From the IMG/VR virus record IMGVR_UViG_2740892230_000023: a stretch of DNA of 6,751 bases. One strand, written 5' to 3'. Source of the DNA: a virus (lineage: Duplodnaviria; Heunggongvirae; Uroviricota; Caudoviricetes). The notes under the pieces were generated by a model, which made no database searches, had not been told where the DNA came from, and saw nothing but the letters and a program-made list of their open reading frames with translations. Position numbers and translations under genes: made by a program. Within the stretch, counting starts at the first letter, position 1. Every line of letters starts with the position of its first letter. Below, piece after piece: positions 1-6,416 of the stretch.

Positions 1-65
1 ATGTTTGATTTTCACACGGCTCTCATCAAACGGTTCGATTTCCAGGTTGAGTGAGACCTTACCTT
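1..65 (-). other. Redundant allelic copy of the 197-261 region (contig end); minus strand encodes ...GKVSLNLEIEPFDESRVKIKH of the leftward early gene
   Basis: Bases 1-51 match 197-247 with two substitutions; followed by a 10-N run at 66-75. Minus-strand translation is in frame with the gene that starts at 360. Confidence 0.6.
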
Positions 66-1075: not shown

Positions 1076-1118
1076 CNNNNNNNNNNAATCTTGCCTGTGT
1101 TGTGTTTCTTTTAGATAC

Positions 1119-1146
1119 ATTATGTATCCAAAGGGTACATTGTCAA
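1119..1146 (-). promoter_or_regulatory. pL-like sigma70 promoter for leftward early transcription (-35 TTGACA, 16-bp spacer, -10 CATAAT on the minus strand), with palindromic operator candidate GATACAT-N-ATGTATC at 1114-1128
   Basis: Minus-strand TTGACA (revcomp of 1141-1146) and CATAAT (revcomp of 1119-1124) with a 16-bp spacer, immediately downstream of the cI terminator. The same element is in the allelic copy at 942-969 (palindrome 937-951). Confidence 0.5.
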
Positions 1147-1149
1147 GTA

Positions 1150-1173
1150 TAAAAAAACCTGCCGAAGCAGGTT
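1150..1173 (-). terminator. Rho-independent terminator downstream of cI
   Basis: Hairpin aacctgc-cgaa-gcaggtt at 1156-1173 (7-bp stem, 4-nt loop), followed on the minus strand by a run of about 7 T (A-run 1151-1157 on plus), 12 nt after the cI stop at 1185. Allelic copy at 974-996. Confidence 0.6.
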
Positions 1174-1184
1174 ATAAATATTGA

Positions 1185-1859
1185 TTAGGCCTTTATTATG
1201 TATCTTCTTGGTTTTCCTGAGAAAATCACTGTACCAATTATAGAGCAATTACCGTTAATCTTAATGTAAGGCTCAGGCCAGTTTGGGTTTAATGCTTTGA
1301 GATAACGCTGTGTTCCATCTTCTATCAACCGCTTGAAGGTGGTTTCGCCTGAATCGTGCATCAATGCAATAACGTCGTCACCGTGGCAGGCAGGGACTTC
1401 AGGATCTACAAAAATCATGTCTCCCGGGCGGTACTCATCAATCATTGAATCACCAATCACCCGCAAGATATAAGTCATTTCGCCACAGGGTACAGGGCAG
1501 GGATAAGTTTCTGCTGTGCTCAAATCAACCTCAGAATAGCCAACTTCTTTCCATGCTCCGGCCTGTACCCATGATATGACAGGGACTAACGTTATTTGTT
1601 TGTTAGTAATTGAAACATCAGGTTTTTTTGTGATGTTTGTTGTCTGGTGTTCTTGATCAAGCCATCCGACAGGCAGGTCGAAACATTTTTCGATGTGCCG
1701 TGCCATGCTGTCACCGATATTTTTAGTAGCACCATCTCCCATAAACCTGCTGGTCTGGGTTGGCTCGCGATCAATCATGGTGGCAAAGGAAGAATTCCCG
1801 CCAACACCATCTCTCAGTTTTCTGGCGTTAGACCGCCGGATGTCATGGATTGTTTTCAT
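1185..1859 (-). CDS. cI: CI-type prophage repressor, N-terminal HTH domain plus C-terminal S24 (LexA/UmuD-like) autopeptidase domain
   Basis: 224-aa ORF. C-terminal half (LVPVISWVQAGAW...GDSM...VDPEVP...TFKRL...ALNPNWPEPYIKINGNCSIIG) resembles the cleavage domain of P22 C2 / lambda CI, including the Ser (GDSM) and Lys (FKRL) dyad. Divergent from a cro-like gene across a short operator region. Confidence 0.9.
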   Translation of the reverse strand: MKTIHDIRRSNARKLRDGVGGNSSFATMIDREPTQTSRFMGDGATKNIGDSMARHIEKCFDLPVGWLDQEHQTTNITKKPDVSITNKQITLVPVISWVQAGAWKEVGYSEVDLSTAETYPCPVPCGEMTYILRVIGDSMIDEYRPGDMIFVDPEVPACHGDDVIALMHDSGETTFKRLIEDGTQRYLKALNPNWPEPYIKINGNCSIIGTVIFSGKPRRYIIKA

Positions 1860-1949
1860 AACGAAATTAAAACCTTTGTACCGATAAGGTACAAGTATCT
1901 TGAAGGTTCATTTCAATCATGTAATATGTATATCGGAGGTACATATTGT
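1860..1949. promoter_or_regulatory. Divergent immunity control region (oR with pR/pRM equivalents) between cI and cro
   Basis: 90-bp intergenic region between divergent repressor genes. Palindrome TTGTACC-N5-GGTACAA at 1876-1894; candidate pR -35 TTGAAG (1900-1905) and -10 TAATAT (1922-1927); GGAGG RBS at 1935-1939 before the cro ATG at 1950; cI start codon at 1857-1859. Confidence 0.55.
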
Positions 1950-2150
1950 ATGAAAGCGTATTGGGACTCTTTAACCAAAGAACAGCAGGGCGAGTTGGCC
2001 GGAAAAGTTGGCTCAACACCTGGCTACTTACGGCTGGTTTTCAATGGTTATAAAAAAGCCAGTTTTGTGCTGGCGAAAAAACTTGAGCAATGCACGTCAG
2101 GTGCAATTACGAAATCTGACTTAAGACCGGATATCTATCCGAAAGATTAA
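1950..2150 (+). CDS. cro: Cro-like small DNA-binding regulator (Cro/YdaS family)
   Basis: 66 aa, MKAYWDSLTKEQQGELAGKVGSTPGYLRLVFNGYKKASFVLAKKLEQCTSGAITKSDLRPDIYPKD. RBS GGAGG 10 nt upstream; position opposite cI. The track ORF 1647-2150 is a spurious upstream extension antisense to cI. Confidence 0.8.
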   Translation: MKAYWDSLTKEQQGELAGKVGSTPGYLRLVFNGYKKASFVLAKKLEQCTSGAITKSDLRPDIYPKD

Positions 2151-2181
2151 CAGAACACCTTCAATTTTTAACCACAGAACG

Positions 2182-2751
2182 ATGAGGCTAACCGTGGGTA
2201 AGTATCACTGGAAAGTAGAAAAACAGCCTGAGTGGTACGTGAAAGCTGTCAGAAAAACTATCGCGGCGTTGCCGGGGGGTTACGCTGAAGCTGCTGAGTG
2301 GCTGGATGTAACAGAGAACGCTTTATTCAACCGCCTTCGTGCAGATGGCGATCAGATTTTCCCGCTGGGATGGGCAATGGTTTTACAGCGCGCGGCTGGC
2401 ACTCACTACATTGCGGATGCTGTCGCACAGTCTGCTGGTGGGGTGTTCGTATCGCTTCCTGAAATTGAGGAAGTAGAGAACGCCGATATAAACCAGCGCC
2501 TGCTGGAAGTCATCGAACAGATCGGGAATTACTCAAAGCAGATTCGTTCGGCAATCGAAGATGGGGTCGTGGAGCCACACGAGCAGACAGCAATTAATGA
2601 TGAGTTGTATCTGTCAATTTCGAAGCTCCAAGAGCATGCAGCACTGGTCTACAAAATCTTTTGCGCTCCAGAAAAGAGTGACGCCCGCGAGTGTGCAGCT
2701 CCGGGCGTCGTGGCGTCGATTGCTTCTGGTTGTGGAGAAACTAACGCATGA
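2182..2751 (+). CDS. CII-like / YdaT-like early regulatory protein (family assignment tentative)
   Basis: 189-aa ORF directly downstream of the cro-like gene, the position taken by cII in lambda and ydaT in Rac-type prophages. Start may be ATG 2182 or GTG 2194 (GAGG upstream). Stop overlaps the next ATG (ATGA at 2748-2751). Confidence 0.6.
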
Positions 2752-3086
2752 ACAGTTTAACAACACACTACCGTCGCTCGCAACTGATTGCGCTTCCTGT
2801 ACCGGGTGGAAAAGCGAAGGTGGAGTATTGCTATGCAGTGAATGTACCAGGTGACAGGGAAATTGTAACCCACAGCTTTGCAGAGTGGGCTGTGGGTGAT
2901 TTCAACCGGCAGAAGGAGACAGTCCTTTGCGACAAGTTAACCGCTGGTTCAAAGATCACTACGGAGTGCCCGTCAGAGTCATTCGTTGGGAGCCGGAAAC
3001 ACAACGGGTTATCTACCTCCGTGAAGGCTATGAACATGAATGCTTCAGTCCGCTCGAACAGTTTCGTCGTAAATTCAGGGAAATAG
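2748..3086 (+). CDS. Small hypothetical protein; only the N-terminal ~60 codons look coding, the 3' part overlaps ORF 2927-3139 in another frame
   Basis: ATG overlaps the upstream stop (ATGA coupling). The first ~60 codons have ordinary composition; the remainder is Ser-rich with rare codons, like an out-of-frame read of the overlapping gene. Confidence 0.35.
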
Positions 3087-3139
3087 AGGTCGGTCATGAG
3101 CCTGTTAATGACATCCCAGCCCATTGTGATAAATCGTGA
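2927..3139 (+). CDS. Small conserved prophage protein (about 70 aa), TTG start with strong SD
   Basis: AGGAG at 2914-2918, 8 nt before TTG 2927. Translation ...[54 protein letters not shown]... has protein-like composition. Overlaps the start of the O-like gene by 44 nt. Confidence 0.6.
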
Positions 3140-4088
3140 TCTTGCATGCCGTATTGGTCTGAATGAGGCAATTGTGTTGCAGCAGCTTCATTACTGGCTG
3201 AATGAAACGAATTCAGGCACTGAGCATGGCGGAATTCGCTGGGTTTATAACACGACAGAACAGTGGCTGGAGCAGTTTCCGTTCTGGTCAGAGTCCACTC
3301 TGAAACGCACATTTGCAAGCCTGAAATCACTTGGGGTTTTGCGTCGCGAGCAACTCAATAAATCGAAGCGTGACATGACCAACTTCTACACGATCAACTA
3401 TGAAAGTGAGCTTTTAGAAGAGGTCAAAGTGAACGAATCCATCAGGTCAAAATGCACTTCTCCATCGGGTCAAAGTGACCTGATGGATGGGCGCAAAATG
3501 ATACGATCCATTGGTTCAAAACGACACGCTGTCATCGGGTCAAAATGGCCCAATGATCTTACAGAGAATACAACAGAGATTACTACAGAGAATAAAACCT
3601 CTTCTCGTCCGGACGCTTCGCAACCGGACACGCAAACGGCTGAACAGGAGTTTTTAACTCGCCATCCTGATGCGGTTGTATTCAGCCCTAAAAAGCGCCA
3701 GTGGGGAACGCAGGATGATTTGACCTGCGCACAGTGGCTCTGGAAAAAAATCATCGCCCTGTACGAGCAGGCCGCCGAATGTGACGGCGAGGTGGTTCGT
3801 CCCAAAGAACCGAACTGGACAGCATGGGCAAACGAAATTCGCCTGATGTGTGTGCAGGATGGTCGTACTCACAAACAAATCTGCGAGATGTACAGCCGCG
3901 TCAGCCGCGATCCGTTCTGGTGCCGTAACGTGCTCAGCCCGTCGAAGTTGCGGGAAAAATGGGATGAGCTTTCCCTGCGCTTATCGCCGTCCGTCAGCAC
4001 GCACACAGAAAAACGTGAAGACCCGTACTTCAAAGCCAGTTACGACAACGTGGACTACAGCCAGATCCCGGCAGGATTCAGGGGGTGA
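3096..4088 (+). CDS. Replication initiator / replisome organiser (lambda O-like N-terminal region, origin-containing linker, DnaT-like C-terminal domain)
   Basis: 330 aa; RBS GAGG 8 nt before ATG 3096. The central region carries iterons at the DNA level. The C-terminus ...YSQIPAGFRG closely resembles the C-terminal end of E. coli primosomal protein DnaT (...SQIPPGFRG, recalled from memory). Confidence 0.85.
   Translation: MSLLMTSQPIVINRDLACRIGLNEAIVLQQLHYWLNETNSGTEHGGIRWVYNTTEQWLEQFPFWSESTLKRTFASLKSLGVLRREQLNKSKRDMTNFYTINYESELLEEVKVNESIRSKCTSPSGQSDLMDGRKMIRSIGSKRHAVIGSKWPNDLTENTTEITTENKTSSRPDASQPDTQTAEQEFLTRHPDAVVFSPKKRQWGTQDDLTCAQWLWKKIIALYEQAAECDGEVVRPKEPNWTAWANEIRLMCVQDGRTHKQICEMYSRVSRDPFWCRNVLSPSKLREKWDELSLRLSPSVSTHTEKREDPYFKASYDNVDYSQIPAGFRG
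3419..3600. repeat. Iteron-type origin of replication inside the initiator gene: 5-6 iterons (core GGTCAAARTG, about 23-bp spacing) then an A-rich tract with three 12-bp ACAGAGA repeats
   Basis: Cores at 3422, 3445, 3468, a degenerate copy at about 3491, 3513 and 3538; ACAGAGA at 3561, 3573 and 3585. Same layout as ori-lambda inside gene O. Confidence 0.6.
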
Positions 4089-4090
4089 TC

Positions 4091-4579
4091 ATGAGTCTTT
4101 TGAATGAAGTTCAGAAATTCATTGAAGCCCATCCGGGGTGTACTTCCGGAGACATTGCGGATGCTTTTGCAGGTTACTCACGGCAGCGCGTTCTGCAGTC
4201 AGCAAGCAAGTTACGTCAGAGTGGGCGTGTGGCTCACCGTTGTGAAGGGGATACACGCAGACATTTTCCGCGCCAGATAAAGATATCGCCGGAGGCGGAA
4301 CGGCAACCAGTTCGTGAAACCAGACCTGTGCGCAATTTCTATGTCGGCACTAACGACCCGCGGGAGATTTTATGCCTGACCCGCCAGGCTGAAGAACTGG
4401 AGTCCAGGGGCTTATACCGTCGTGCTGCAACGGTGTGGATGGCGGCATTCCGTGAAAGCCACTCCCAGCCAGAACGAAACAATTTTCTGGCGCGTCGTGA
4501 GCAGTGTTTACGGAAAAGCAGCAAGCGCGCTGTATCGGGTGATGAGTGGTATCTGTCAGGGAATTACGTGGGGGCTTAA
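4091..4579 (+). CDS. PerC/ANR-family-like transcriptional regulator with an N-terminal extension (possible winged helix)
   Basis: C-terminal region ...AEELESRGLYRRAATVWMAAFRESHSQPERNNFLARREQCLRKS matches the PerC-family pattern (G-x-[WY]-RRAA-x-x-W ... RR-x-x-C-x-x-KS, recalled). Starts ATG 4091 (or GTG 4085) overlapping the upstream stop; its stop overlaps the methylase ATG (TAATG at 4577-4580). Confidence 0.7.
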   Translation: MSLLNEVQKFIEAHPGCTSGDIADAFAGYSRQRVLQSASKLRQSGRVAHRCEGDTRRHFPRQIKISPEAERQPVRETRPVRNFYVGTNDPREILCLTRQAEELESRGLYRRAATVWMAAFRESHSQPERNNFLARREQCLRKSSKRAVSGDEWYLSGNYVGA

Positions 4580-4607
4580 TGAGTAATAAATATTGCCNNN
4601 NNNNNNN

Positions 4608-4691
4608 GTTAAATGACGTTCAGAAATTCATTGAAGCCCATCCGGGCTGTACTTCCGGAGACATTGCGGATGCTTTTTACGTGGGGGCTTA
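4608..4691 (+). other. Allelic fragment: in-frame internal-deletion variant of the PerC-like gene joined to the methylase start
   Basis: 4615-4668 matches 4107-4160 (one substitution in the first few codons) and then joins directly to the gene's last codons (tacgtgggggcttaATGagtaataaatattgcc), reading ...DIADAFYVGA*. Preceded by an N run at 4598-4607. Confidence 0.55.
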
Positions 4692-5496
4692 ATGAGTAAT
4701 AAATATTGCCAGGCGCTGGTAGAACTGCGGAACAAACCAGCCCATGAACTGAAGGAAGTGGGCGATCAGTGGCGCACGCCGGACAACATTTTCTGGGGAA
4801 TTAACACCCTGTTTGGCCCGTTTGTTCTGGATCTGTTCACCGACGGTGATAACGCCAAATGCGCTGCGTATTACACGGCGGAAGACAACGCGCTGGCGCA
4901 TGACTGGTCAGAACGCCTTGCGGAGCTTAAAGGTGCTGCCTTTGGAAATCCCCCATACAGCCGCGCCAGTCAGCATGAGGGGCAATACATCACCGGCATG
5001 CGTTACATCATGAAGCATGCCAGTGCCATGCGTGATAAGGGCGGGCGCTATGTTTTCCTGATCAAAGCTGCCACCAGCGAAGTGTGGTGGCCGGAAGATG
5101 CAGATCATATTGCTTTTATTCGCGGGCGTATTGGTTTTGAACTGCCTGCCTGGTTTATCCCGAAGGATGAGAAGCAGGTGCCGACAGGCGCTTTCTTCGC
5201 TGGTGCTATTGCTGTTTTCGACAAGACCTGGAAGGGACCGGCAATCAGCTATATCGGGCGCGATGAACTTGAGGCATGTGGTGAGGCGTNNNNNNNNNNT
5301 CTGGTTTATCCCGAAAGACGAGAAGCAGGTACCGACAGGAGCTTTTTTCGCTGGTGCTATTGCTGTTTTTGACAAGACCTGGAAGGGACCGGCAATCAGC
5401 TACATTGGGCGCGATGAACTTGAGGCATGTGGTGAGGCGTTTCTGGCGCAGGTTCGCCTGCAGGCAGAACGGCTGGTCAGGGAGATAGTGGCATGA
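4692..5496 (+). CDS. Phage Dam-family DNA N6-adenine methyltransferase (orphan methyltransferase); coordinates inflated by an N gap and a 141-bp allelic overlap
   Basis: WRTP and NPPY motifs and overall resemblance to lambdoid/Stx-phage Dam methylases. N run at 5290-5299; 5300-5440 duplicates 5149-5289. Track ORF 5098-5496 is the same frame after the gap. Stop overlaps the rusA-type ATG (ATGA at 5493-5496). Confidence 0.85.
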
Positions 5497-5526
5497 AGCT
5501 GATCCTGCCTTTTCCGCCCAGCGTGA
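5493..5526 (+). other. rusA: Allelic fragment: rusA start fused directly to the methylase stop (allele without the LexA-like gene)
   Basis: atgaagctgatcctgccttttccgcccagcgtga is identical to the rusA 5' end at 5887-5920, then an N run at 5527-5536. Confidence 0.6.
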
Positions 5527-5563
5527 NNNNNNNNNNGGAAAAGCTGGTCAGGGAGATGGCGGC

Positions 5564-5890
5564 ATGACGACGTTAACTCAATGCCAGCAGCAGGTGCTGG
5601 ATATGCTGATTTCTTATCAGAAAGAGCGTGGCTTCCCGCCAACCAATCAGGAGGTGGCAACCATGCTGGGATACCGTTCGGTGAATGCAGCGGTGGAGCA
5701 TCTTCGCGCACTGGAGAAAAAAGGCGTCATCACGATAAAGCGTGGTGTGGCCCGGGGGATCACGCTTCATACCGCGGTGAAGGACGACGACAGCGAGGCG
5801 GTCGGGATTATCCGCTCACTGCTTGCCGGTGAGGAAAACGCAAGGCTGCGTGCAACCCACTGGTTACATGAGAGGGGCCTGAAAGTATGA
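5564..5890 (+). CDS. LexA-like DNA-binding-domain-only protein (no S24 peptidase domain)
   Basis: 108 aa. First ~75 aa (LTQCQQQVLDMLISYQKERGFPPTNQEVATMLGYRSVNAAVEHLRALEKKGVITIKRGVARGITL) align to the E. coli LexA N-terminal winged-helix domain, followed by a ~35-aa unrelated tail. RBS GGAG 8 nt upstream; stop overlaps the rusA ATG (ATGA at 5887-5890). Confidence 0.8.
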   Translation: MTTLTQCQQQVLDMLISYQKERGFPPTNQEVATMLGYRSVNAAVEHLRALEKKGVITIKRGVARGITLHTAVKDDDSEAVGIIRSLLAGEENARLRATHWLHERGLKV

Positions 5891-5986
5891 AGCTGATCCT
5901 GCCTTTTCCGCCCAGCGTGAACACGTACTGGCGACACCCCAACAAAGGGGCGTTTGCAGGTAAGAGCCTGATAAGCTCGGCGGGGC
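5887..5986 (+). other. rusA: Allelic 5' fragment of rusA (contig end before N run 5987-5996); 5997-6026 then repeats the LexA-like 3' end
   Basis: Near-identical to 6027-6126 with a few substitutions. Confidence 0.6.
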
Positions 5987-6026
5987 NNNNNNNNNNTCAC
6001 TGGTTACATGAGAGAGGCCTGAAAGT

Positions 6027-6416
6027 ATGAAGCTGATCCTGCCTTTCCCGCCCAGCGTGAACACCTACTGGCGACACCCCAACAAAGGGGCATTTGCTGG
6101 TAAGAGCCTGATAAGCGCGGCGGGGCGAAAATTTCAGAGCGCGGCGTGCGCAGCAATAGTTGAGCAGTTACGTCGTCTGCCAAAACCAACGTCGGCACCT
6201 GCTTCAGTGGAGATCGTGTTGTTTCCTCCGGATAACCGGATCCGCGATCTGGACAACTATAACAAGGCGCTGTTTGACGCCCTGACCCACGCGGGTGTGT
6301 GGGAAGACGACAGTCAGGTGAAAAGAATGCTGGTGGAGTGGGGACCGGTTATCCCGAAAGGGAAGGTCGAGATCACTATCAGTAAGTATGAGAAACCGGC
6401 GGGTGCAGCCGCCTGA
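6027..6416 (+). CDS. rusA: RusA Holliday-junction resolvase (crossover junction endodeoxyribonuclease)
   Basis: 129 aa; shares LPxPPSxNxYxRH, RDLDNxxKAxFDALTxAGxWxDDxQV and C-terminal motifs with E. coli RusA. Confidence 0.9.
   Translation: MKLILPFPPSVNTYWRHPNKGAFAGKSLISAAGRKFQSAACAAIVEQLRRLPKPTSAPASVEIVLFPPDNRIRDLDNYNKALFDALTHAGVWEDDSQVKRMLVEWGPVIPKGKVEITISKYEKPAGAAA

What the first reader, a model, noticed from the sequence alone, without database searches (positions are those of the whole stretch)
5537..5890. LexA DNA-binding-domain-only gene as a presence/absence cassette between the methylase and rusA
The protein keeps the LexA N-terminal wing-helix, including the recognition-helix region SVNAAVEHL (E. 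coli LexA has SPNAAEEHL), but replaces the cleavage site and S24 peptidase domain with a short charged/leucine-rich tail. It should therefore be uncleavable by RecA*. The window holds both alleles: methylase stop directly on the rusA ATG (5493-5526) and methylase 3' end, LexA-like gene, rusA (5537-5920), with matching junctions, which marks the gene as a discrete insertion. A non-cleavable LexA mimic could bind SOS boxes and damp SOS or prophage induction, or repress a competitor phage. I am not aware of a characterised function.
Basis: partly seen in the sequence, partly recalled or inferred. Interest (0 to 1): 0.65.

Follow-up and report, generated by a model that had tools for sequence, protein, structure and literature searches.

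The report
Phage LexA look-alike without protease domain
A small prophage gene found in about 40% of complete E. coli genomes encodes the DNA-binding head of the SOS repressor LexA joined to a short two-helix tail in place of the self-cleaving domain, so it is probably a damage-proof LexA-type regulator; it is already catalogued, but I found no functional study.

Summary
Window 5564-5890 (+) encodes a 108-aa protein whose first ~70 residues are a LexA winged helix-turn-helix (Pfam PF01726, 69 bits; 50% identity and 1.3 Å rmsd to E. coli LexA NTD). No S24 peptidase domain is present. A conserved two-helix tail replaces it.

The gene is intact and under purifying selection (dN/dS ~0.06), so it is not a pseudogene. 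It is a widespread, already annotated family: phrog_362, NCBI "LexA family transcriptional regulator", phages SfV, mEp460, cdtI and Stx2a/c, and 2274 of 5426 complete E. coli genomes.

The "two alleles" are real, and the indel is exactly the ORF, bounded by ATGA stop/start overlaps. They sit side by side only because the window is a scaffold of alternative assembly paths. The filled form outnumbers the empty one 2222 to 41 genomes.

Homologues at 38-51% identity always lie just upstream of rusA. In the most divergent branch they sit in operons headed by near-consensus SOS boxes, laid out like the Gifsy dinI-antirepressor operon.

Best reading (about 45%): a RecA-insensitive LexA surrogate made during lytic growth that re-represses SOS-box promoters. 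No functional study was found. The closest characterised analogue is GIL01 gp6.

The parts
5564..5890 (+). LexA-DBD-only gene (108 codons plus stop)
   Evidence: ORF list; PF01726 69 bits; phrog_362 full length, E=1e-59; 99-100% identical to 'LexA family transcriptional regulator' of E. coli prophages and phages SKA5, mEp460 and Stx2c
5564..5770 (+). Winged helix-turn-helix domain (residues 1-69)
   Evidence: AF2: H6-22, H28-35, H40-52, strands 56-58 and 66-68; Foldseek to LexA-DNA complex 3jso, rmsd 1.3 Å, 50% identity
5675..5713 (+). Recognition helix region RSVNAAVEHLRAL (residues 38-50); LexA has RSPNAAEEHLKAL
   Evidence: Alignments. Published LexA contact residues are S39, N41, A42, E44, E45 (PMC3091678). 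Here S, N, A, V, E
5777..5887 (+). Conserved C-terminal tail (residues 72-108): two helices, 74-87 and 93-103; proposed dimerisation module
   Evidence: AF2 block pLDDT 84-86. Pattern EAVxxIRALLAxxxxARxRAxxWLxxxG kept at 38-51% identity, with A97 and L101 invariant. No specific PDB match. Dimerisation is inferred, not shown
5550..5567 (+). Left junction: Shine-Dalgarno-like AGGGAG (5550-5555) inside the methylase 3' end, then ATGA (5564-5567) where the methylase stop overlaps the LexA-like start
   Evidence: Sequence; same junction in L002
5887..5890 (+). Right junction: ATGA where the LexA-like stop overlaps the rusA start
   Evidence: Sequence; a 4-bp overlap with rusA is also seen in distant homologues L008, L009 and L014
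5300..5526 (+). Scaffold piece carrying the empty allele: Dam 3' end fused to the rusA start by ATGA at 5493-5496
   Evidence: The same junction is found at 100% identity in 41 complete E. coli genomes, e.g. NZ_CP014583.1
5537..5986 (+). Scaffold piece carrying the filled allele: last 27 nt of Dam, the LexA-like gene, first 100 nt of rusA
   Evidence: At least 80% covered in 2222 of 5426 complete E. coli genomes
5997..6026 (+). 3' end of a second, slightly different filled allele of the LexA-like gene (synonymous AGA/AGG change)
   Evidence: Sequence comparison of pieces 8 and 9
4692..5289 (+). Upstream neighbour: phage Dam-type N6-adenine methyltransferase (5' two-thirds; its 3' end is on pieces 7 and 8)
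   Evidence: PF05869 E=9e-46; annotation in L002 and L021
6027..6416 (+). Downstream neighbour: RusA Holliday-junction resolvase
   Evidence: PF05866 E=7e-15. The LexA-like then RusA pairing is conserved in 8 distant loci
1185..1859 (-). Prophage repressor of the same element (ymfK-like, with S24 peptidase domain), i.e. the cleavable LexA-family protein of this prophage
   Evidence: PF00717 E=2e-26; annotated ymfK 'LexA family protein' in L021

Best explanation
The gene encodes a RecA*-insensitive LexA-type DNA-binding protein of lambdoid (e14/SfV/mEp460-like) prophages.

Shown: it has a LexA winged HTH with most base-contacting residues intact, no S24 domain, and a conserved two-helix tail. 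It sits inside the early-right (nin) operon, translationally coupled to Dam upstream and RusA downstream, with no promoter of its own. It is under purifying selection.

Inferred: the tail replaces the LexA C-terminal domain as a dimerisation module. The protein is made only after prophage induction or infection. It binds LexA-type CTGT-N8-ACAG boxes, and because it cannot be cleaved it re-imposes repression on SOS-box promoters while host LexA is being destroyed. Those promoters include the host SOS regulon, the prophage's own SOS-box gene (the late-region DNA methyltransferase), and LexA-controlled antirepressor/dinI operons of itself or of co-resident prophages.

In the divergent branch, where the gene lies inside an SOS-box operon, this would form a delayed negative-feedback loop, producing a pulse of expression.
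For: - Domain identity.
- Contact residues S39, N41, A42 and E45 are kept. GIL01 gp6, which recognises a different site, has a diverged helix.
- Absence of S24.
- Published statement that the LexA NTD fragment by itself retains some ability to bind SOS boxes and repress, and must be removed by ClpXP (PMC10584840). This protein does not end in that fragment's C-terminus.
- Tail conserved and predicted helical.
- Purifying selection on both domains.
- Operon position and coupling.
- Near-consensus SOS boxes head the operon holding the gene in 4 of 4 divergent-branch loci with enough upstream sequence (L013, L016, L017, L018). The layout is the experimentally defined Gifsy one: terminator, LexA box, dinI, antirepressor (PMC3121763; L020). 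DinI-like and RecA_C-only genes are neighbours.
- E. coli-type prophages carry canonical SOS boxes, and N8 is the only enriched CTGT/ACAG spacing (3 observed vs 0.67 expected).
- The cassette carries no non-coding DNA of its own, so its target must lie in the host or in DNA shared with phages that lack it.
Against: - No binding or expression data exist.
- LexA Glu44 is never kept in the family, and some members have clearly diverged recognition helices (P0086 SVNTIAGH; P0242 SQNTVFIH, although its operon has a perfect SOS box). So at least some members read other sites, and the SOS boxes may serve host LexA only.
- Dimerisation through the tail is unproven: pTM is 0.52, and the hydrophobic-moment test was not significant.
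- The SOS-box enrichment rests on three sites.
- Gifsy-type operons carry the unrelated IrsA (DUF1367) in the same slot, so position alone does not imply LexA-like function.
- The window itself holds no above-chance SOS box.
Confidence: 0.45

Rival explanations
1. A phage-specific transcription factor with its own operator, as repressor or activator, like GIL01 gp6. The LexA fold has been recruited to control phage genes and has no effect on the host SOS regulon.
For: The precedent gp6 is a truncated LexA homologue that activates a late promoter at a non-LexA site (PMC6182141). The family-wide loss of Glu44 and the variable recognition helices in some members fit drifting specificity. LexA-DBD-only proteins are common in many phage groups.
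Against: The indel carries no operator DNA, and phages with and without the gene share the same flanks. No CTGT/ACAG spacing other than the LexA one is enriched. Most members keep the S-x-N-A-A-x-E-H helix. Late genes in these phages are already controlled by a Q antiterminator.
Confidence: 0.25
2. An accessory of phage DNA metabolism that works with RusA and/or the methyltransferase, for example by recruiting or restraining the resolvase at particular DNA sites, and not a transcription regulator.
For: The gene lies directly upstream of rusA, mostly with a 4-bp overlap, in 8 loci at 38-51% identity. A DNA methyltransferase is upstream in the same operon in the window and in 5 of those 8 loci, directly adjacent in L008, L012, L014/L015.
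Against: Gene order in lambdoid nin regions is conserved regardless of function. rusA works without this gene in the empty allele. L017 has the gene with no RusA in the ~1.75 kb held downstream, which reaches Q. Nothing points to a protein-protein interface.
Confidence: 0.1
3. An SOS-box competitor that works against host LexA: it occupies boxes weakly or displaces LexA without repressing, and so speeds induction.
For: Same DNA-reading residues as LexA. Phages are known to modulate LexA, as GIL01 gp7 does.
Against: SOS boxes overlap promoter elements, so any bound protein should repress. The gene is expressed only after the lytic operon is already on.
Confidence: 0.07
4. A decaying remnant of a full-length LexA/S24 repressor, i.e. 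a pseudogene.
For: It lacks two-thirds of LexA. In this copy an Ala-Gly aligns with the LexA cleavage site.
Against: Length is stable at 106-108 aa across thousands of sequences and none has S24. dN/dS is ~0.06. The tail is conserved to 38% identity. Translational coupling is intact on both sides.
Confidence: 0.03

Closest known systems
E. coli LexA (N-terminal DNA-binding domain; PDB 1lea, 3jso)
   Same: Same fold and clear homology: 43% identity over 90 residues to the host's own LexA, 50% over the 68-residue core at rmsd 1.3 Å. Contact residues S39, N41, A42 and E45 are retained.
   Different: No S24 peptidase/dimerisation domain, no conserved Ala-Gly site, Glu44 replaced, and a novel two-helix tail. 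It scores below the TIGR00498 equivalog cutoff (70.8 vs 110.95). It is encoded in a prophage lytic operon, not in an autoregulated SOS gene.
LexA N-terminal cleavage fragment (residues 1-84)
   Same: A DBD-only LexA species. The fragment is reported to retain some ability to bind SOS boxes and repress (PMC10584840).
   Different: According to that paper the fragment is removed by ClpXP. This protein has a different C-terminus (…ERGLKV) plus a conserved helical tail that may give stable dimerisation (inference).
[quoted passage not shown]
   Same: [quoted passage not shown] Same Pfam domain, PF01726. It is the only functionally characterised example I found.
   Different: gp6 is 66 aa with no tail. 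Its recognition helix has diverged (VSHKTAHRY), it binds a GaCACA/TGTGaC site and it activates a late promoter. There is no pairwise BLASTP similarity to the window protein. According to that paper it is 44% identical to Bacillus LexA, so independent capture is plausible.
phrog_362 / NCBI 'LexA family transcriptional regulator' (e.g. WP_000210170.1) / SfV orf42 / mEp460 'LexA DNA binding domain protein'
   Same: This is the same family. Full-length match to phrog_362 (1e-59) and 99-100% identity to the annotated proteins. 'Pham 237' of Stx phages (pfam01726 only, 15 phages; PMC8136144) carries the same label and is probably this family; membership was not checked.
   Different: Nothing structural. 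These names are annotation labels with no experimental function behind them (SfV orf42 is annotated 'unknown').
Gifsy prophage LexA-controlled dinI-antirepressor-irsA operon
   Same: Divergent-branch homologues lie in operons of the same layout: terminator, SOS box, (dinI), small ORF, slot gene, phrog_1212 ORF (45% identical to Gifsy-2 STM1021.1n), resolvase, Q.
   Different: The slot gene in Gifsy is IrsA (DUF1367), which is not homologous to the LexA-DBD protein. The small ORF (phrog_1813) shows no BLASTP similarity to GftA. The window's own copy is not in such an operon.

Membership tests
LexA (TIGR00498 equivalog; SOS master repressor) | N-terminal LexA winged-HTH DNA-binding domain | tested here: met
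   PF01726 69 bits, cutoff 23.7; structural match to 3jso/1lea
LexA (TIGR00498 equivalog; SOS master repressor) | C-terminal S24 peptidase/dimerisation domain with the Ser119/Lys156 dyad | tested here: not met
   No Peptidase_S24 hit at E<=0.1. The protein ends at residue 108. TIGR00498 is matched only over positions 1-91 of 203 and scores 70.8, below the 110.95 cutoff
LexA (TIGR00498 equivalog; SOS master repressor) | Conserved Ala-Gly cleavage site | tested here: not met
   A88-G89 aligns to A84-G85 in this copy, but homologues have AK, AN and VG at that position
LexA (TIGR00498 equivalog; SOS master repressor) | Binds CTGT-N8-ACAG SOS boxes | not testable with these tools
   Only indirect evidence: 4 of 5 contact residues are kept. 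EMSA or ChIP is needed
phrog_362 / NCBI LexA-family small prophage protein (PF01726 only, ~106-108 aa) | Full-length similarity, including the C-terminal tail | tested here: met
   phrog_362 E=1e-59, protein residues 1-108 to profile 1-106 of 106; 95-100% identity to annotated prophage proteins
phrog_362 / NCBI LexA-family small prophage protein (PF01726 only, ~106-108 aa) | Location in the early-right/nin operon of a lambdoid prophage, directly upstream of rusA | tested here: met
   Window; L002 and L021; distant members L008-L016, L018 and L019
Phage truncated LexA homologues of the GIL01 gp6 type | Phage-encoded, LexA DBD only, no S24 domain | tested here: met
Phage truncated LexA homologues of the GIL01 gp6 type | Sequence relatedness to gp6 beyond the shared Pfam domain | tested here: not met
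   BLASTP finds no alignment at E<=100; no Bacillus phage among the tblastn hits
Phage truncated LexA homologues of the GIL01 gp6 type | Activates a late promoter at a non-LexA palindrome | not testable with these tools
   The recognition helix is LexA-like here and diverged in gp6. These phages have a Q antiterminator for late genes
IrsA (Gifsy dinI-antirepressor-irsA operon) | Homology to STM1020 (DUF1367) | tested here: not met
   BLASTP finds no significant match. STM1020 is PF07105 and the LexA-DBD proteins are PF01726. Only the slot is shared

The most novel reading that the evidence does not exclude
The protein is a RecA-proof surrogate LexA carried by prophages in ~40% of E. coli genomes. 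Once its phage goes lytic it switches the host SOS regulon back off and silences the LexA-controlled antirepressor/dinI operons of rival prophages. In Gifsy-like operons that carry it behind their own SOS box, it acts as a built-in timer that turns an SOS signal into a pulse. This would be a general phage strategy for taking over the DNA-damage response, with consequences for Stx-phage induction, mutagenesis and antibiotic tolerance.
Probability: 0.3. Interest if true: 0.7.

Novelty: new variant of a known kind. Interest (0 to 1): 0.48.

Why it matters
If the protein binds SOS boxes, a very common prophage gene can override the cell's DNA-damage response after LexA has been destroyed. The gene is in 2274 of 5426 complete E. 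coli genomes and in SfV, SfII/SfIV, cdtI and Stx2a/Stx2c phages. That would bear on prophage-prophage competition, on the timing of Shiga-toxin phage induction by antibiotics, and on SOS-dependent mutagenesis and persistence in lysogens. It would also be a second, probably independent, case of a phage recruiting the LexA DNA-binding domain, after GIL01 gp6. Here the SOS-box-reading residues are retained and a new tail is added. If instead it has its own target, it is simply one more uncharacterised phage regulator. The hypothesis can be tested with standard assays.

Tried and rejected
1. A retained LexA cleavage site that might allow trans-cleavage. HMMER aligns LLAGE to VAAGE, but the Gly is not conserved. 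Rejected.

2. Identity with IrsA of the Gifsy prophages, suggested by the dinI, small ORF, slot-gene order. IrsA is DUF1367 and unrelated. Only the slot is shared.

3. phrog_1813 small ORF as a Gifsy GftA-type antirepressor. No BLASTP similarity and no Pfam hit. Left open.

4. A phage-specific operator made of CTGT half-sites at a non-LexA spacing. Only N8 is enriched.

5. SOS boxes inside the window. Three one-mismatch matches against 2.3 expected, so no signal.

6. An own promoter in front of the gene in the window. None found.

7. Defence or anti-defence annotation. PADLOC gave only weak wHTH matches to CARF/Csa3.

8. Hydrophobic-moment test for amphipathic tail helices. Not significant.

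9. Locus scan with the divergent alignment A4 failed because no stretch was conserved enough. The scan with A2 returned only 5 loci.

10. The LexA-DNA structure paper could not be read. Contact residues were taken from PMC3091678 instead.

11. Seven literature searches for a functional study of this protein found only genome-annotation mentions.

Full report
**What the window is.** The 6751-base window is not one continuous molecule. It is nine pieces joined by 10-N runs. Consecutive pieces are alternative versions of the same region of a lambdoid prophage: 909-1076 against 1087-1250, 5300-5526 against 5537-5986, and 5997 onward as a third variant.

The main path runs in this order:
- an S24-type repressor (1185-1859, minus strand)
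- cro/cII-like genes
- a replication gene (3096-4088)
- a PerC-family gene (4085-4579)
- a Dam-type methyltransferase (4692 onward)
- the gene in question (5564-5890)
- rusA (6027-6416)
- a KilA-N gene (6436 onward)

Piece 1087-4597 is 98.6% identical to a prophage of E. coli FJ_Ec_21 inserted at dusA. The statement that the window holds both alleles is therefore literally true. It reflects two or three related prophages in the sample, collapsed into a branched assembly, and not a tandem arrangement.

**Check of the observation.** The ORF encodes 108 residues.
- Residues 1-65 match Pfam LexA_DNA_bind end to end (69 bits, cutoff 23.7).
- NCBIfam's LexA equivalog model matches only over its positions 1-91 of 203 and scores below its cutoff.
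- The best solved relatives are E. coli LexA structures.
- An AlphaFold model (mean pLDDT 77) has the three helices and two-strand wing of LexA. It superposes on the LexA-DNA complex 3jso at 1.3 Å over 68 residues with 50% identity.
- There is no S24 hit.

After a short acidic linker the model has two helices, 74-87 and 93-103. In this copy LLAGE aligns with LexA's VAAGE, which contains the Ala84-Gly85 bond. The Gly is replaced by Lys or Asn, and the Ala by Val, in close homologues.

**The indel.** The filled and empty alleles differ by exactly the 324-bp ORF.
- In the filled allele the methylase stop overlaps the LexA-like start (ATGA, 5564-5567), and the LexA-like stop overlaps the rusA start (ATGA, 5887-5890).
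- In the empty allele the methylase stop overlaps the rusA start (ATGA, 5493-5496).
- Each junction has a Shine-Dalgarno-like sequence inside the upstream gene.

Both forms occur in complete genomes. The filled form is covered at 80% or more in 2222 of 5426 complete E. coli genomes. The empty junction is in 41. That count needs a near-exact 60-mer, so it is a lower bound. The last nine methylase codons differ between the alleles in the same way in the window and in independent genomes (EKLVREMAA against ERLVREIVA). These are old haplotypes, not a recent insertion. Loss of the gene, or exchange of mosaic modules at gene boundaries, is more likely.

**It is a working gene and a known family.**
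- Close homologues are 106-108 aa and carry PF01726 only.
- dN/dS against the Shigella copy is about 0.06. At larger distances synonymous sites are saturated while pN is 0.19-0.38, in both the wHTH and the tail.
- The protein matches phrog_362 ('transcriptional repressor') over its whole length.
- It is annotated in SfV (orf42, 'unknown'), SfII, SfIV, mEp460 ('LexA DNA binding domain protein'), cdtI and Stx2a/Stx2c phages, and as 'LexA family transcriptional regulator' in RefSeq.
- A survey of Stx phages lists a 'pham 237' (pfam01726 only, 15 phages), probably this family, with no functional comment (PMC8136144).

An exhaustive HMMER search found members at 38-51% identity with the same tail pattern, EAVxxIRALLAxxxxARxRAxxWLxxxG.

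**Conserved context.** In the window's own type of prophage the order is Dam, LexA-like, RusA, KilA-N, DUF968, Q. I looked up eight distant homologues in their contigs.
- Seven lie 0-650 bp upstream of a RusA gene, mostly overlapping it by 4 bp.
- The eighth (L017) has a 67-aa ORF, DUF968 and Q downstream, with no RusA in the ~1.75 kb held downstream.
- The gene directly upstream varies (Dam, C5-methylase, D12-type methylase, a replication protein, or a small ORF); a methyltransferase lies upstream in the same operon in 5 of the 8.

In the most divergent branch (N-terminally extended proteins of 118-165 aa) the gene follows a conserved 75-82-aa ORF (phrog_1813). All four loci with enough upstream sequence have a near-consensus SOS box at the head of the operon:
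- L016 TACTGTTTATATATACAGTG
- L013 ACCTGTACATTCATACAGTA, directly after a TTGCAA-17-AATAAT promoter-like site
- L017 TACTGTTTATTTATACAGTA, in front of a DinI-like gene
- L018 TACTGTATAAAAATACAGTT, in front of a RecA_C-only ORF

In L016 the box follows a predicted terminator, and L013 has a terminator-like hairpin by eye.

This is the layout shown experimentally for the Gifsy prophages: a terminator and LexA box drive dinI, a small antirepressor and irsA (PMC3121763). My scan recovered that documented box in Gifsy-2. The ORF after the slot gene is homologous between Gifsy-2 and L013 (45% identity, E=4e-20). IrsA itself is a DUF1367 protein and is unrelated. The LexA-DBD gene and irsA are therefore alternative occupants of one slot. 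The Gifsy paper reports that non-polar irsA or dinI deletions did not change the induction of early-gene fusions. That says nothing directly about the LexA-DBD protein.

**What it probably binds.** The published LexA DNA-contact residues are Ser39, Asn41, Ala42, Glu44 and Glu45 (PMC3091678). The window protein has S, N, A, V, E. Across the family Ser39 is invariant, and Asn41, Ala42 and Glu45 are mostly kept. Glu44 is never kept. A few members have clearly different helices.

By contrast GIL01 gp6 has a diverged helix. It is the one characterised phage LexA-DBD-only protein, and it binds a different palindrome and activates a late promoter. It shows no pairwise BLASTP similarity to the window protein.

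In the prophages that carry the E. coli-type gene, the only CTGT/ACAG spacing that is enriched is the LexA one, N8 (3 sites against 0.67 expected), and all three sites have AT-rich spacers. One of them sits at the start of the late-region DNA-methyltransferase gene in the window's own type of prophage (L021 28230). It recurs in L002 and upstream of the equivalent gene in the distant L016. The scan also recovered the known box upstream of the host lexA gene, which happens to lie in L021.

**Most likely mechanism (confidence about 0.45).** The shown facts are the LexA-type reading head, the absence of the domain that RecA* acts through, a conserved helical tail, expression as part of the early lytic operon in this window (no promoter, coupled translation), and location in SOS-box operons in the divergent branch.

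From these I infer a protein that dimerises through its tail and binds LexA-type boxes. Because it is uncleavable, it would restore repression at SOS-box promoters after host LexA has been destroyed. The literature states that even the bare LexA N-terminal fragment retains some ability to repress and has to be removed by ClpXP (PMC10584840). A stable, dimeric version made by the phage would be an effective SOS shut-off.

Competition with co-resident prophages whose antirepressors are LexA-controlled may also be affected. Where the gene lies behind its own SOS box, the circuit is a delayed negative feedback.

The weak points are the family-wide Glu44 change, the divergent helices in some members (including one whose operon has a perfect SOS box), the unproven dimerisation, and the small number of sites behind the enrichment.

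**Rivals.**
- A phage-specific regulator with its own site, in the manner of gp6 (0.25).
- An accessory of RusA or methylase DNA metabolism, suggested by the conserved adjacency (0.10).
- A LexA antagonist (0.07).
- A pseudogene (0.03, effectively refuted).

**Novelty and score.** The gene is not new as an object. Thousands of copies are annotated and it has a PHROG. [quoted passage not shown] Three things have not been described in the literature I could search:
- the architecture of this family, a LexA head with SOS-reading residues plus a conserved two-helix tail
- its fixed place next to rusA
- its presence inside Gifsy-type SOS-box operons next to DinI-like and RecA_C-like genes

I rate it a new variant of a known kind, with interest 0.48. 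A specialist would not be astonished, but the hypothesis is sharp, cheap to test, and concerns a gene present in about 40% of complete E. coli genomes.

Noticed in passing
window 4608-4692 (compare 4085-4579): Another ORF-level indel among the scaffold pieces. Piece 6 starts with a deletion allele of the PerC-family (yfdN-like) gene, in which the N-terminal ~23 codons (LNDVQKFIEAHPGCTSGDIADAF) are joined in frame to the last four codons (YVGA*). About 137 codons are missing.
   Followed up: partly
window 1-65 / 76-247 and 909-1076 / 1087-1250: Pairs of scaffold pieces that are near-identical alternative versions of the same sequence. This shows the window is a linearised branched assembly of two or more related prophages.
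   Followed up: partly
L021 28230-28249; L002 10103-10122; L016 7741-7760: A near-consensus SOS box (TACTGTAAAAATAAACAGTG or CACTGTAAAAATAAACAGTG) sits at or just upstream of the start of a late-region DNA methyltransferase gene, between Q and the lysis genes. It is conserved between E. coli prophages and a distant prophage. This suggests a LexA-controlled phage methyltransferase.
   Followed up: partly
L002 1575-1594; L003 3105-3124; L005 1867-1886: A perfect or near-perfect SOS box (TACTGTTTTTACATACAGTA) lies inside the coding sequence of the XRE-type cI-like repressor gene. It is conserved in E. coli, Shigella and Citrobacter prophages. Its function is unknown.
   Followed up: no
L018 4244-4597; L017 515-785: Prophage operons headed by SOS boxes encode a 95-aa protein made only of the RecA C-terminal domain (PF21096) in L018, or a DinI-like protein in L017, just upstream of phrog_1813 and the LexA-DBD gene. 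Together they form a cluster of small genes that look SOS-related.
   Followed up: partly
L013 4713-4961; L016 4724-4951; L017 797-1024; L018 4722-4955: A conserved 75-82-aa ORF (phrog_1813, unknown function) always directly precedes the divergent-branch LexA-DBD gene, in the position held by the antirepressor in Gifsy operons. It has no detectable similarity to GftA.
   Followed up: partly
L021 9595-10203 and 14100 onward: The prophage that best matches the window is inserted at dusA, only about 4 kb from the host lexA-dinF locus in E. coli FJ_Ec_21. This is probably coincidence.
   Followed up: no
proteins P0022, P0092, P0098: Predicted proteins that combine Dam (PF05869) and LexA_DNA_bind. 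They are probably frameshift or read-through fusions across the ATGA junction in some genomes.
   Followed up: no
proteins P0132, P0149, P0152, P0153 and others: Many representatives of 140-350 aa match the query in two separate stretches, i.e. proteins with tandem LexA-type DNA-binding domains and no obvious S24 domain.
   Followed up: no
L016 8794-10357: An AcrVA2-like gene (PF26125) lies next to a Cas1 gene immediately beyond the prophage late region.
   Followed up: no
L013 2863-4232 (minus strand); L018 2833-3801 (minus strand): Reverse-strand morons inserted just upstream of the SOS-box operon: a bacterial RNase A-like toxin with a CdiI_2-like immunity gene in L013, and an Abi_2 abortive-infection gene in L018.
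   Followed up: no
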